Of a stretch of DNA of 64,000 nucleotides, positions 25,063-28,011 are shown one piece after another. The notes beneath the pieces are model-generated. The model had not been told where the DNA came from. It made no database searches and saw only the letters and a list, made by a program, of their open reading frames with translations. The position numbers and the translations under genes were made by a program. The number at the start of each line of letters is the position of its first letter. Position 1 is the first letter of the stretch. The stretch is from an uncultured Chloroflexia bacterium (GTDB lineage Bacteria; Chloroflexota; Anaerolineae; Anaerolineales; UBA4823): the NCBI GenBank assembly GCA_963702535.1, contig CAVPDG010000025.1, positions 237,315 to 301,314 on the forward strand. The letters run 5' to 3'.

Positions 25063-25968
25063 TCAGCGCGTCCAATAGGCAAACGCCAGTAAATAAGCTG
25101 CAGACGCAAATAGCACCAGGGCAGTCAGCGTCAGCGCCCTCCAGTTCGGAGCAGCTCCTTCCGCAATGCGGCGCATCTGCCAGATTTGCAACAACCCTAC
25201 TGGCAGGGTAAAGAACGCCGGCAAAGCGATAAAAAACGGCATGCCCAGCGTTACCGCCACCGCAAGGAGGAGATAGGCGATCAGGATCAGCAGGTTGTGA
25301 AATCCCATGCCGGCATTCCAGCCCAAACGCACCAGAAGGGTTCGCTTCTCTTGTTTCGTATCCGAGGCGTAATCGGGAAACTCGAAAGCCAGCATCATCG
25401 CCAGGTGCAGAGCAGTCAGAGGGAAGGTCGTCATGGGCACAAGGCGATGCAAATCGCCCACCTGTAAAAGATAAGCAAAACCCGGGATCAGGTTCGCCAC
25501 GATGATCGAGGTGGTCAACTCGCCATAACCGGAGGAAGCCAGCCGCACGGGGGGAACGGAATAGAAAAAGGCGCCGAGGAAGCACAAGACCATGATCAAG
25601 ATCGTAGCGGATTCAAGCCTGTGGGTATTGATGAGCAAAACAGTCAGGGATGCCGTCACAGCCAGGCAGGCTGCTGCAGCCATCAGAGCGGTTGAGCGCG
25701 TCAGCTTACCCGGTCCCACCGCCCCGCTACCGCCGGAGAATGGCGTGCGGTTTGGGTTATCCTGATCGCCAGGTGCATCGTAATACTCGTTAAGATATTG
25801 CGCACTGAGCTGTAACAGAGTCACCCAGGCTTGCCCTAACAAGTACAGCTCCCAGTTCACCTCGCTTCCCAGGTAATGGGCTATTCCCACACCGAGGGCA
25901 TACACCAGGATTCCGCCAAGCAGGAATAATGGACGGGACATGCGCACAAATAGCCGCAGGTTCTGCAT
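25063..25968 (-). CDS. UbiA-family aromatic prenyltransferase (MenA-like)
   Basis: 301 aa with about 8 TMs. Asp-rich motif NEYYDAPGDQDN and a second motif EFPDYASDTKQEKRTL. Confidence 0.75.
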   Translation of the reverse strand: MQNLRLFVRMSRPLFLLGGILVYALGVGIAHYLGSEVNWELYLLGQAWVTLLQLSAQYLNEYYDAPGDQDNPNRTPFSGGSGAVGPGKLTRSTALMAAAACLAVTASLTVLLINTHRLESATILIMVLCFLGAFFYSVPPVRLASSGYGELTTSIIVANLIPGFAYLLQVGDLHRLVPMTTFPLTALHLAMMLAFEFPDYASDTKQEKRTLLVRLGWNAGMGFHNLLILIAYLLLAVAVTLGMPFFIALPAFFTLPVGLLQIWQMRRIAEGAAPNWRALTLTALVLFASAAYLLAFAYWTR

Positions 25969-25972
25969 AAGA

Positions 25973-26452
25973 TTATTGCTCGGCGAGGTGTTTGCGGATA
26001 TCGCGTTGGTGGATCTGGTTATGCCGGTAAAGCAGTTTGATGATCTCAGCCAACTCGGTTTTCCCTAAGTAGGGATGGCGCCCCTGGCGGAGCAGGTCTG
26101 CCTGGGTCATGCCAGAGACGGTCTGGATATTCCGCTGACGGAAGCGATCAAATTGCTGCAGCAATTCAGGCGGAGATACCTGGTTTAGCGAAGCGACTTT
26201 GCGTTCATTATAAGCATCAATATCAAAATCATCCGGCGCCCCGCTTCCACCCGCCTGGATATTCTCGATCAAACGACCGAACGCAGCTTCTGCGGAGACA
26301 AAGTGAGCCAGCACCTGGCGCACCGCCCAACAAGAGCCATCTGTGTAAACGGTTTTCCCCCAGCTATCCGGTGAGAGGGCAGAAAAAAACTCAACCGTTC
26401 TCTCACCTTCAACTCTCATACGCTCGGCAAGGAATTGAGGGGTGTCAGACAT
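25973..26452 (-). CDS. DinB-family protein
   Basis: Starting from MSDTPQFLAERMRVEGERTVEFF the protein is about 159 aa, helical, with His-containing motifs (VLAHFVSAE, YRHNQIHQRD) typical of the DinB/YfiT fold. The longer ORF start at 26533 overlaps the rhodanese 3' part. Confidence 0.65.
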   Translation of the reverse strand: MSDTPQFLAERMRVEGERTVEFFSALSPDSWGKTVYTDGSCWAVRQVLAHFVSAEAAFGRLIENIQAGGSGAPDDFDIDAYNERKVASLNQVSPPELLQQFDRFRQRNIQTVSGMTQADLLRQGRHPYLGKTELAEIIKLLYRHNQIHQRDIRKHLAEQ

Positions 26453-26462
26453 GCGCACTGCC

Positions 26463-26936
26463 TTACGGCTCGATGGGGTAGCCTGCGTCCTGCCAGGCTT
26501 GCAACCCACCCAGGATAGGATTGACTTGCTCAAAGCCCTGGCTCAGAAGATACGACGCCGCACGGGCGCTCGATTCCTCCGCCGGTCAGGTGCAATAGGT
26601 AATGATCCAGGCGTTCTGATCCAGCTCGCCAAGGCGGTCGGGTAGCTCACTCAAGGGGATAGACAAAGCTCCAGGGATGTGATGCGAAGCAAAGGAATCA
26701 GCATCGCGTACGTCCAGGAAGACCGCATTCTTCTGATCGAAAGCCGCTTTTGCATCCACCAGGGCGATACGGGTGACATCCTGGGCAGTTACCCCTTGCT
26801 CTGCAGCCGGTTCAGGCGCTGCAGCGGGCTGAACCAGTTTCCAGACAAGCCAGCCCCCTAGCACCAGGACCACGAAGCCGCCAAGGGCTATCAGCAACAC
26901 TGGCAGTGAATTATCCCGACGCTTGCGTTTCGCCAT
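26463..26936 (-). CDS. membrane-anchored rhodanese-domain protein with an in-frame TGA (26586-26588) at a conserved Cys position
   Basis: ORF 26586..26936 carries an N-terminal TM and a rhodanese fold, ending ...NAWIITYCT-TGA. The same frame continues PAEESSARAASYLLSQGFEQVNPILGGLQAWQDAGYPIEP to TAA 26463-26465, 11 nt before the DinB ATG. Confidence 0.7.
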
Positions 26937-27048: not shown

Positions 27049-28011
27049 TTATTTGCGAAAGAAATTCGAGATGAAAAACCACAAATTGGCAGGGCGCTCA
27101 GCCAGGCGGCGTACAAAGTAAGGGTACCATTCTGATCCGTAAGGCACATAGACTCGCACCGGGTAGCCTTCCTTCGTCAAGCTTTCCTGTAGATCACGCC
27201 GGATACCGTGCAACATCTGGAATTCCAGCGCTTCTTTGGGAACGCCGATCTTGCGGGCATAGTCGCGCGCAAACTTCACTCGCCGCTCATCGTGAGTAGC
27301 CAGGGCGACCGTGGGGGGCAGGCGCCCGTCCTGGCTGACAACCGGGCATCCGGCAGCCAGGGACCCATCCAGCATGATCTGAGCCAACCTGTCGTAGCTG
27401 GCATCCACATCCGGCTTGTGGGGGTACGCAATGTCATTCGGCTCTTTATAAGCGCCCTTGCACAGGCGGATGCGTGAGCACTCGCTGGTCAGCTTGCGGA
27501 CATCCTCCTCGCTGCGGTACAGGTAAGACTGGATCACCACCCCCACATTTTCAAATCCTTGCTCCTTCCGCATCTGCCAGAAGAGGCGCAGCGTTGCATC
27601 GACACAAGAAGAATCTTCCATGTCGATACGGACAAAATTGCCCGTATCCGCTGCTTTTTGCAGGATCATCTGCAAATTCTCGCGGCACATCCCCTCACCC
27701 AGCGCCAGCCCAATCTGAGTCAGCTTGATCGAAACGTTGGCTCTTACCCCGGATGCCTGTATGGTTTCCAGCACCTGAAGGATCTCCTCAGCGGCGCGCC
27801 TGGCAGACTCCAGATCGGTGGTATGTTCCCCGAGGTGATCGAGCGTGGCATTGATCCCTTTCTGGTTCAATTGTTTGATGACCCGAATAGCATCGTCGAG
27901 GTTTTCACCCGCGACAAATCGTGATGCTGCCCGCCATGCAAATTTCCAGTTCGTGACGAGTTTGCGTGCCCAGGCTGCCTTAGATAAGTAGATGAACAGG
28001 GTTCGGAACAT
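27049..28011 (-). CDS. proline dehydrogenase (monofunctional PutA-like)
   Basis: Intact 320-aa ORF. TIM-barrel proline dehydrogenase pattern ...INATLDHLGE..., VSIKLTQIG, VRIDMEDS, VVIQSYLYRS, RLCKGAYKEP, ATHDE, FQMLHGI, C-terminal YFVRRLAERPANLWFF. Confidence 0.85.
   Translation of the reverse strand: MFRTLFIYLSKAAWARKLVTNWKFAWRAASRFVAGENLDDAIRVIKQLNQKGINATLDHLGEHTTDLESARRAAEEILQVLETIQASGVRANVSIKLTQIGLALGEGMCRENLQMILQKAADTGNFVRIDMEDSSCVDATLRLFWQMRKEQGFENVGVVIQSYLYRSEEDVRKLTSECSRIRLCKGAYKEPNDIAYPHKPDVDASYDRLAQIMLDGSLAAGCPVVSQDGRLPPTVALATHDERRVKFARDYARKIGVPKEALEFQMLHGIRRDLQESLTKEGYPVRVYVPYGSEWYPYFVRRLAERPANLWFFISNFFRK

What the first reader, a model, noticed from the sequence alone, without database searches (positions are those of the whole stretch)
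26463..26936. Rhodanese with an in-frame TGA at a conserved Cys position plus a SECIS-like hairpin: candidate selenoprotein
- The rhodanese ORF stops at TGA (26586-26588) in the context ...WIITYC-T-TGA-PAEESSARAASYLL....
- The same frame stays open for 40 more codons and encodes the expected rest of the domain (...GFEQVNPILGGLQAWQDAGYPIEP). It ends 11 nt before the next gene.
- Membrane-anchored rhodaneses of this type carry a YCxCPxE..SA motif (recalled from family knowledge). The TGA therefore replaces the second Cys of the active-site loop.
- On the mRNA, nt 12-36 after the UGA (plus-strand 26550-26574) can fold as AUCGAGCGCC-CGUGC-GGCGUCGUAU. This has about 9 pairs, a bulged A and a bulged U, and a 5-nt apical loop containing GU. 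The loop starts 21 nt after the UGA, matching the position and style of bacterial SECIS elements.
- This is the only gene disruption in the window that is an in-frame stop. All the other ~30 are single-base indels, which argues against the same error process.
Basis: partly seen in the sequence, partly recalled or inferred. Interest (0 to 1): 0.65.

Follow-up and report, generated by a model that had tools for sequence, protein, structure and literature searches.

The report
Membrane-anchored selenocysteine rhodanese (C-x-U)
The in-frame TGA in this small membrane-anchored rhodanese gene almost certainly encodes selenocysteine, which makes the gene a member of an already described type of rhodanese selenoprotein that public databases routinely cut short at the TGA.

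Summary

- **The gene.** Window 26466-26936 (minus strand) encodes a 157-codon protein: an N-terminal membrane helix followed by one rhodanese domain. Codon 117 is TGA, in the motif ..WIITY-C-T-[TGA]-PAEESSARAA...
- **Conservation of the TGA.** It sits in the same column in 19 of 20 syntenic orthologues from different genera, and 41 of 42 close orthologues in a 201-genome sample of the order carry an in-frame TGA. Four genomes carry a second TGA at the Cys two codons upstream (U-x-U).
- **Independent data.** Short-read contigs from four metagenomes keep the TGA.
- **Cys relatives.** 325 loci encoding YCTCP[ANS]EE have Cys in that column.
- **SECIS hairpin.** GCGCC-CGUGC-GGCGY starts 16 nt after the UGA. 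It shows compensatory changes and near-zero synonymous variation, fits the published bacterial SECIS model, and is absent from the Cys forms.
- **Sec machinery.** The genome has selA, a Sec-containing selD, and selB, whose frame breaks are assembly insertions. tRNA-Sec is missing from this 85%-complete assembly but present in 13 of 13 relatives tested.

C-x-U and U-x-U rhodanese selenoproteins are already described (NCBIfam NF041203 "rhodanese_LYCAU"). This clade hits that model best but scores below its cut-off. It is a new member of a known kind, and its main value is for annotation. Function beyond rhodanese-type sulfur or redox chemistry outside the cytoplasm is inferred.

The parts
26466..26936 (-). 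Coding sequence of the 157-residue rhodanese selenoprotein (stop TAA at 26463-26465)
   Evidence: AlphaFold2 model has mean pLDDT 91.8. Foldseek gives a rhodanese fold, with top hits 3tp9, 3ilm and 1gmx.
26586..26588 (-). In-frame UGA, codon 117, read as selenocysteine
   Evidence: Same column is TGA in 19 orthologues, and 41 of 42 order-level orthologues carry an in-frame TGA. TGA is retained in contigs from 4 independent metagenomes. Cys occupies this column in 325 relatives.
26592..26594 (-). Cys115 codon (TGC), the canonical rhodanese Cys after the central beta-strand. It is itself TGA in four related genomes (U-x-U).
   Evidence: The predicted strand 110-114 is followed by C115-T116-U117 and then helix 118-132.
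26555..26569 (-). Conserved apical SECIS hairpin: stem GCGCC (26565-26569) with GGCGU (26555-26559), loop CGUGC (26560-26564). The stem starts 16 nt after the UGA and the loop 21 nt after it.
   Evidence: compensatory changes at two pairs; synonymous entropy 0-0.6 bits here against mostly 1.2-2.4 elsewhere, and CGT for Arg in 18 of 18; the full stem is present in 15 of 19 Sec forms but only 5 of 80 Cys forms.
26540..26583 (-). Extended lower stem predicted for this sequence only (-20.5 kcal/mol for the 48 nt after the UGA). It is not conserved among orthologues.
26835..26906 (-). N-terminal membrane helix (residues 11-34), preceded by a Lys/Arg-rich tail. It is a signal anchor that would place the rhodanese domain outside the cytoplasm (inferred).
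   Evidence: Helix 11-34 in the model. Orthologue L020 and Cys form P0051 have lipoprotein-type signal peptides (LLAAC, LFAAC) in its place.
26487..26756 (-). Rhodanese domain (residues 61-150)
   Evidence: Pfam PF00581, E 1.4e-15
25973..26452 (-). Downstream DinB_2-family gene starting 10 nt after the rhodanese stop; conserved neighbour, probably co-transcribed
25063..25968 (-). UbiA-family prenyltransferase gene, conserved further downstream
27049..28011 (-). Proline dehydrogenase gene, conserved upstream neighbour; used here to establish orthology by synteny

Best explanation
The gene encodes a genuine selenoprotein: a single-domain rhodanese tethered to the membrane by an N-terminal helix, with the active-site motif Y-C115-T-U117-P-A-E-E.

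**Recoding (inferred mechanism).** During translation, SelB carrying Sec-tRNA(Sec) binds the small G+C-rich hairpin (GCGCC-CGUGC-GGCGU) that starts 16 nt after the UGA. It delivers selenocysteine at codon 117, so the ribosome continues for 40 more codons and completes the rhodanese fold.

**Chemistry (inferred).** The Sec lies two residues after the canonical rhodanese cysteine, at the N-terminus of the active-site helix. It most likely works with Cys115 as a redox or sulfane-sulfur-transfer pair, through a selenenylsulfide or Se-S persulfide intermediate, on the outer face of the membrane.

**What is shown.** The conserved UGA, the conserved coding sequence after it, the conserved and covarying hairpin, the Cys homologues, and the Sec genes in the genome.

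**What is inferred.** Actual Se incorporation, membrane topology, and the chemistry and substrate.
For: 1. **Conserved TGA.** It is in the identical column in 19 syntenic orthologues sharing 41-59% identity, and 41 of 42 close orthologues in a 201-genome sample of the order carry an in-frame TGA, across 20 genera.
2. **Translation continues past the TGA.** The 40 codons after it are conserved as protein while their synonymous sites vary freely.
3. **TGA is otherwise a stop.** It is the commonest stop of long ORFs in this genome (599 of 1236). It also terminates the same rhodanese gene in several orthologues. Recoding is therefore site-specific.
4. **Cys homologues.** 325 loci encode YCTCP[ANS]EE with Cys in the column. 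Cys forms P0027, P0044 and P0051 agree.
5. **Hairpin.**
   - Pairs 30-42 and 33-39 show double-sided compensatory changes in 3 and 2 sequences. No shuffle out of 500 reached the observed count of both-sides-changed cells.
   - Codon entropy is 0-0.6 bits at Ala+7, Arg+8 and Ala+10 (1.02 at Ser+6), against mostly 1.2-2.4 bits at other conserved residues. Arg is CGT in 18 of 18.
   - It fits the bSECIS model quoted in PMC13188914: 3-9 nt loop, G followed by U in the first loop positions, 16-37 nt spacing, MFE at or below -7.5 kcal/mol.
   - The full 5-bp stem is present in 15 of 19 Sec forms but only 5 of 80 Cys forms.
6. **Independent sequence data.** Contigs from four independent metagenomes show no change at 26586-26588.
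7. **Sec machinery.**
   - selA is intact (427 bits).
   - selD carries its own Sec TGA in ..SSCAG[U]ASK...
   - selB is present. Its four frame breaks coincide with single-base insertions in the assembly that short-read contigs lack.
   - tRNA-Sec is present in 13 of 13 relatives tested.
8. **Closest family.** The best NCBIfam hit for all 20 orthologues is NF041203, rhodanese-related (seleno)protein.
Against: - **No tRNA-Sec gene in this assembly.** ARAGORN, Rfam RF01852 and blastn with the relatives' near-identical tRNA-Sec all failed to find one. The assembly is 84.8% complete and also lacks tmRNA, so absence is weak evidence, but it is unresolved.
- **selB is frameshifted as assembled**.
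- **The conserved stem is short.** It has 4-5 bp, and in four orthologues only 4 pairs form.
- **The protein scores below the NF041203 cut-off:** 72.7 against 115 bits.
- **No protein-level or 75Se evidence exists.**
- **Which residue is the nucleophile is not resolved.** Sequence alignments to solved rhodaneses place either C115 or U117 on the catalytic Cys.
Confidence: 0.9

Rival explanations
1. The TGA is a sequencing or assembly error, or a recent nonsense mutation (pseudogene), of a TGC/TGT Cys codon in an error-rich long-read assembly.
For: The assembly carries many single-base errors. Four extra bases in selB are absent from short-read contigs. Earlier notes on this genome say the same.
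Against: - The errors seen are indels, not substitutions.
- TGA is kept in contigs from four independent metagenomes.
- TGA is in the same column in 19 syntenic orthologues, and 41 of 42 order-level orthologues carry an in-frame TGA.
- The downstream 40 codons remain under protein-level constraint.
Confidence: 0.01
2. The UGA is read through or recoded without selenium. Near-cognate Trp, Cys or Arg would be inserted, with the hairpin acting only as a generic read-through stimulator. Alternatively, this particular strain has lost Sec decoding and makes only the 116-residue fragment.
For: - tRNA-Sec was not found in the assembly.
- Some database entries show W, R or A at the column. The W entries are most simply explained by gene callers applying a TGA=Trp code.
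Against: - selA and a Sec-type selD are intact, and selB's breaks are assembly artefacts.
- tRNA-Sec is present in 13 of 13 relatives.
- The hairpin has the position and the G-U loop of bacterial SECIS elements.
- Cys, the classic Sec counterpart, occupies the column in relatives.
- The closest curated family is a (seleno)protein family.
Confidence: 0.06
3. The TGA is a true stop, and the 40 downstream codons are a separate small gene or untranslated remnant.
For: Public gene callers annotate more than 100 relatives as ~116-residue proteins.
Against: - A rhodanese domain cut at the active-site loop lacks its last helix-strand-helix and could not fold.
- The downstream segment has no start codon context of its own.
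- It is always in frame and is conserved as the missing part of the domain in all orthologues.
Confidence: 0.02

Closest known systems
NCBIfam NF041203 'rhodanese_LYCAU', rhodanese-related (seleno)protein. [quoted passage not shown]
   Same: - Single rhodanese domain.
- Sec two residues after the canonical Cys that follows a Tyr (Y-C-x-U).
- It is the best NCBIfam hit for this protein and all 19 orthologues, collinear over profile positions 12-124 of 126.
   Different: - It scores 72.7 bits against the curated cut-off of 115. The best orthologue E-value is 4.7e-23.
- The motif is TYCTU-PAEE rather than LYCAU.
- It has an N-terminal membrane anchor.
- It forms a clade in one order, reported to be Anaerolineae.
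- Cys relatives of the YCTCPxEE type also fall below the cut-off at 54-92 bits. This is therefore a sister group, not a member by NCBI's criterion.
U-x-U rhodanese-related sulfurtransferase selenoproteins of the Olavius algarvensis deltaproteobacterial symbionts (PMC1976440)
   Same: A second Sec has evolved at the neighbouring Cys, giving U-x-U. This is seen here in four related genomes: G016, G020, G024 and G095.
   Different: The phylum is different. The window's own gene is the C-x-U form. I could not compare the sequences directly.
Extracytoplasmic or membrane-bound single-domain Cys rhodaneses: E. coli PspE (periplasmic), YgaP (membrane-anchored) and GlpE
   Same: Same fold and size. Location is extracytoplasmic or membrane-associated.
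   Different: - Those proteins have a single catalytic Cys in a C-X5-(R/S) loop that is neutral or basic.
- This protein has C-x-U followed by an acidic P-A-E-E turn and an N-terminal rather than C-terminal anchor.
- No substrate is known for it.

Membership tests
Bacterial selenoprotein (SECIS-dependent UGA recoding) | In-frame UGA conserved among orthologues, with conserved coding sequence after it | tested here: met
   TGA in the same column in 19 of 20 syntenic orthologues, and an in-frame TGA in 41 of 42 order-level orthologues. The downstream 40 codons are conserved as protein.
Bacterial selenoprotein (SECIS-dependent UGA recoding) | Homologues with Cys aligned to the UGA | tested here: met
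   325 loci encode YCTCP[ANS]EE. Cys forms P0027, P0044 and P0051 agree.
Bacterial selenoprotein (SECIS-dependent UGA recoding) | [quoted passage not shown] | tested here: met
   Loop CGUGC, 5-bp stem, 21 nt spacing, -20.5 kcal/mol for the 48-nt context. Covariation and synonymous-site suppression are present. The hairpin is absent from Cys forms. bSECISearch itself was not run.
Bacterial selenoprotein (SECIS-dependent UGA recoding) | selA, selB, selC (tRNA-Sec) and selD in the same genome | tested here: inconclusive
   - selA is intact.
- selD is present with its own Sec codon.
- selB is present, and its four frame breaks are assembly insertions.
- tRNA-Sec was not found in this 84.8%-complete assembly but is present in 13 of 13 relatives.
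Bacterial selenoprotein (SECIS-dependent UGA recoding) | Selenium demonstrated in the protein | not testable with these tools
   Needs 75Se labelling or mass spectrometry.
NCBIfam NF041203 rhodanese_LYCAU (equivalog) | Whole-protein score at or above the curated cut-off of 115 bits | tested here: not met
   72.7 bits. All 20 orthologues are below the cut-off, although NF041203 is their top hit.
NCBIfam NF041203 rhodanese_LYCAU (equivalog) | Y-C-x-U active-site motif in a single rhodanese domain | tested here: met
   T-Y-C-T-U. The comparison rests on the model's name and the motif listed in PMC13188914.
Rhodanese homology domain (Pfam PF00581) | Profile match above the gathering score, and a rhodanese fold | tested here: met
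   58 bits against 22.2. The AlphaFold2 model has pLDDT 91.8, and Foldseek hits to rhodaneses have rmsd 1.2-2 A.

The most novel reading that the evidence does not exclude
The most novel reading still open is that this is a distinct family, uncatalogued in databases, and the signature selenoprotein of this order. The family would consist of extracytoplasmic, membrane- or lipid-tethered C-x-U / U-x-U rhodaneses with an acidic P-A-E-E active-site turn. It would be almost obligately Sec-dependent (41 of 42 orthologues carry the TGA). Its function would differ from cytoplasmic thiosulfate sulfurtransferases, for example envelope persulfide/polysulfide, selenium or thiol-redox handling. A single SECIS would serve two UGA codons one codon apart in the U-x-U forms.
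Probability: 0.35. Interest if true: 0.5.

Novelty: new member of a known kind. Interest (0 to 1): 0.35.

Why it matters
- **Annotation.** More than 100 public entries for this clade are truncated at about 116 residues. They are named "SseA" or "hypothetical", or are translated with Trp at the Sec codon. The curated model that should catch them, NF041203, misses them on score. A model for this clade would correct the annotation across a whole order and raise its counted selenoproteome.
- **Biology.** The clade adds a well-supported, apparently extracytoplasmic selenoprotein with a very compact, highly conserved SECIS. Natural C-x-U, U-x-U, C-x-C and C-x-S variants occur in syntenic genes. That is a convenient natural series for asking what Sec adds to rhodanese chemistry.
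- **Limit.** It does not change what is known about Sec decoding.

Tried and rejected
- **tRNA-Sec search in the own genome.** I used ARAGORN at default and lowered thresholds (the latter gave only false positives). I also used Rfam RF01852 (best hits were ordinary tRNAs), a hand-written anticodon-arm/T-arm pattern, and blastn with seven relatives' tRNA-Sec sequences. Nothing was found.
- **Flanks of tRNA-Sec in relatives.** I tried to show that they map to contig ends in this assembly. The result was uninformative.
- **Which residue is catalytic.** HMMER alignments to solved rhodaneses disagree on whether C115 or U117 occupies the catalytic position: gapped against 3tp9, ungapped against 6mxv. 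The model places C115 directly after the central strand and U117 at the helix N-terminus. I did not have the coordinates to measure distances.
- **selD's own downstream hairpins** were compared with this SECIS. They are only loosely similar and I did not use them as evidence.
- **Global TGA reassignment** was rejected, because TGA is the commonest stop in this genome.

Full report
**Observation**

On the minus strand an ORF starts at ATG 26936 and meets TGA at 26588-26586 (codon 117), in the context ...NAWIITYCT[TGA]PAEESSARAASYLL. The frame stays open for 40 more codons and ends at TAA 26465-26463. With the TGA read as a residue, the 157-aa product matches Pfam Rhodanese over residues 61-150 (58 bits, cut-off 22.2).

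An AlphaFold2 model built on 20 orthologues is confident (mean pLDDT 91.8). It shows:
- a membrane helix at residues 11-34, after a Lys/Arg-rich N-terminus;
- a Pro/Ala-rich linker;
- a complete rhodanese fold.

Foldseek finds rhodaneses as best matches (3tp9, Alr3790 3ilm, GlpE 1gmx; rmsd 1.2-2 A). In the model the central strand is W110-Y114. C115, T116 and U117 form the turn, and the following helix starts at P118.

**Is the TGA real and conserved?**

Whole-genome searches that read through stops gave a clear answer.
- Among 40 relatives, the best match in 19 genomes of different genera (41-59% identity) has an in-frame TGA.
- After extraction and alignment, that TGA is in exactly the same column in all 19..[IL][TP]Y-C-T-TGA-P-x-E-E-[ST]-S-A-R-[AV]-A...
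- Synteny confirms orthology: proline dehydrogenase, rhodanese, DinB_2 protein, UbiA prenyltransferase.
- In an even sample of 201 genomes of the order, 36 genomes (20 genera, 7 families) have a close orthologue. Of their 42 matches, 41 carry TGA.
- Four genomes (G016, G020, G024, G095) have a second TGA at the Cys115 codon, giving U-x-U.
- The single exception, G010, is syntenic and has C-A-S. It still owns a tRNA-Sec.
- Contigs from four independent metagenomes (wastewater, wetland, sediment, freshwater) laid on the window show no difference at 26586-26588, although they differ at many synonymous sites nearby.
- TGA is the commonest terminator of long ORFs in this genome (599 of 1236). It also ends the same rhodanese gene in several orthologues. 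Recoding is therefore local and not a change of genetic code.

**Cys counterparts**

A scan of one genome per species for the peptide pattern YCTCP[ANS]EE found 337 stretches, of which 325 are confirmed relatives. They are mostly Acidobacteriota, Burkholderiales and other soil lineages, and all have Cys in the Sec column. Further Cys forms appear in the protein database (P0027, P0044, P0051). Several of these also have an N-terminal anchor or a lipoprotein signal peptide, as does orthologue L020 (LLAAC). This supports an extracytoplasmic location. That location is an inference from the positive-inside rule and the lipoboxes and has not been tested.

**The RNA element**

Sixteen nucleotides after the UGA lies GCGCC-CGUGC-GGCGY.
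- **Pairing across the 19 Sec genes.** The two inner pairs are invariant. Pair 30-42 is C-G in 15, U-A in 3 and U-G in 1. Pair 33-39 is C-G in 17 and U-A in 2. Both therefore show double-sided compensatory changes.
- **Shuffle control.** No shuffle out of 500 reached the observed number of both-sides-changed cells. Sliding the partner strand collapses pairing from 76% to 18-47%.
- **Synonymous variation.** Conserved residues elsewhere in the gene mostly show 1.2-2.4 bits of synonymous-codon entropy. The hairpin codons show much less: Ser+6 1.02, Ala+7 0.49, Arg+8 0.00 (CGT in 18 of 18) and Ala+10 0.63 bits.
- **Control in Cys forms.** The full 5-bp stem in this register is present in 15 of 19 Sec genes but only 5 of 80 Cys genes. 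In the Cys genes the S-A-R-A-A peptide is not conserved either.
- **Nucleotide conservation in the community.** In the metagenomes the 54 nt from the Trp110 codon to the Ala127 codon (26609-26556) attract contigs from many other organisms at 90% or higher nucleotide identity, with unrelated flanks.
- **Fit to the published model.** The element meets the bacterial SECIS consensus quoted in PMC13188914: 3-9 nt loop, G followed by G or U in the first loop positions, at least 4 bp of stem, 16-37 nt between UGA and loop (here 21), and MFE at or below -7.5 kcal/mol (here -20.5 for the 48-nt context).

**Sec machinery**

- **selA** is intact (427 bits).
- **selD** scores 359 bits and carries its own in-frame TGA in ..SSCAG[U]ASK.., at the position where Sec-type SelD proteins have Sec, as far as I recall.
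- **selB** is present at C11:~102780-104691 but broken into four frames. Short-read contigs from up to three independent runs lack one base at each of four places (L002 positions 99, 181, 300, 1233), and these coincide with the frame changes. The breaks are therefore assembly insertions.
- **tRNA-Sec** was not found by any method. All 13 relatives tested have one, scoring 67-77 bits. The seven whose sequences I extracted are almost identical to one another. The assembly is 84.8% complete and also lacks tmRNA. I regard the gene as unassembled, but this is the one membership criterion left open.

**What it is in relation to known families**

Rhodanese selenoproteins have been known since the Sargasso Sea analysis (PMC1088965). 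Reviews list a C-x-U form: "COG0607 form 2" in PMC9312934 and "form 3, NF041203" in PMC13188914. A U-x-U form was reported from Olavius symbionts (PMC1976440).

NF041203 (rhodanese_LYCAU) is the best NCBIfam hit for this protein and for all 19 orthologues. The score is 72.7 bits against a cut-off of 115. The YCTCPxEE Cys relatives also fall below it, at 54-92 bits. The window's gene therefore works like that family and is its closest relative, but it is not a member by the curated criterion. It belongs to a sister clade with an N-terminal anchor and a TYCTU-PAEE motif. The lineage is reported to be Anaerolineae (earlier notes, unchecked). One named homologue comes from "Chloroflexi bacterium RBG_16_54_18".

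**State of public annotation**

A search of 5.8 billion proteins returned 1329 relatives. The closest are overwhelmingly 110-117 residues long and cover 74% of the query, meaning they are cut at the TGA. They are named "3-mercaptopyruvate sulfurtransferase SseA" or "hypothetical protein". A few full-length entries have Trp at the column, most simply because the gene caller applied a TGA=Trp code. Isolated entries have Arg or Ala.

**Mechanism and function**

I commit to SECIS/SelB-dependent insertion of Sec at codon 117 (probability about 0.9).

For the chemistry:
- Position 115 is Cys or Sec in every sequence examined.
- Position 117 is Sec or Cys in most, but Ser, Ala or Arg in three.
- The model puts C115 at the canonical post-strand position and U117 at the N-terminus of the active-site helix.

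I therefore take C115 as the canonical rhodanese nucleophile position. U117 would be a partner that forms a selenenylsulfide or carries the transferred sulfur. This is inference, because sequence alignments to solved structures are ambiguous. The acidic P-A-E-E turn is unlike the basic loops of thiosulfate sulfurtransferases (my own knowledge), so the substrate may not be an anion. No substrate can be named from the data. The conserved DinB_2 and UbiA neighbours give no clear functional link.

**Verdict**

This is a correct and well-supported selenoprotein call. It is a new member, or sister clade, of a known kind. It is useful mainly for annotation and as a natural series of Sec/Cys/Ser variants.

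Noticed in passing
Own genome C11:~102780-104691 (L002:1-1700): selB is split over four reading frames in the assembly. Short-read metagenome contigs lack one base at L002 positions 99, 181, 300 and 1233, which are the frame breaks. These are therefore assembly insertions, and the assembly is indel-rich in general.
   Followed up: yes
Own genome, whole assembly: No tRNA-Sec and no tmRNA gene were detected. The assembly has 47 tRNAs in 32 contigs and is 84.8% complete. Two oddly long tRNA calls were left unexamined: C7:331962-332050 ('Trp cca', 89 nt) and C21:145205-145298 ('Phe gaa', 94 nt).
   Followed up: partly
window 26556-26609: In four metagenomes, this 54-nt stretch (Trp110 codon through the SECIS 3' arm) is matched at 90% or higher identity by many contigs from other organisms whose flanks are unrelated. 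Summed contig depth reaches 24-91 in the 26570-26596 bin, against about 3-8 in the flanking bins. The UGA/SECIS block is conserved at the nucleotide level across the community.
   Followed up: partly
L032 (G010:C5:130583-130897): This syntenic orthologue has C-A-S instead of C-T-U, although the genome keeps a tRNA-Sec. The GCGCC/GGCGC stem is still there, but the loop has changed from CGUGC to AGCGC. It looks like a recent loss of Sec at this site.
   Followed up: partly
G067:C1 (three loci); G090, G141, G152 and G207 (two each): Some genomes of the order carry two or three paralogous copies of this rhodanese, all with the in-frame TGA.
   Followed up: no
Proteins P0019, P0022, P0024, P0025, P0030, P0031: These public full-length entries of the clade have Trp at the Sec column. 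The likely cause is that the gene caller chose a TGA=Trp code for those contigs. P0015 has Arg and P0037 has Ala there. P0081 (Chloroflexi bacterium RBG_16_54_18) ends at ..WIITY, which indicates a U-x-U form cut at its first TGA.
   Followed up: no
Own genome C10:548615-549547 (-): selD is itself a selenoprotein here (..SSCAG[TGA]ASK..). Two G+C-rich hairpins lie 12 and 26 nt after its UGA.
   Followed up: partly
window 26973: One metagenome contig (X7) lacks one base here, in the intergenic region upstream of the rhodanese start. It may be another assembly indel or a strain difference.
   Followed up: no
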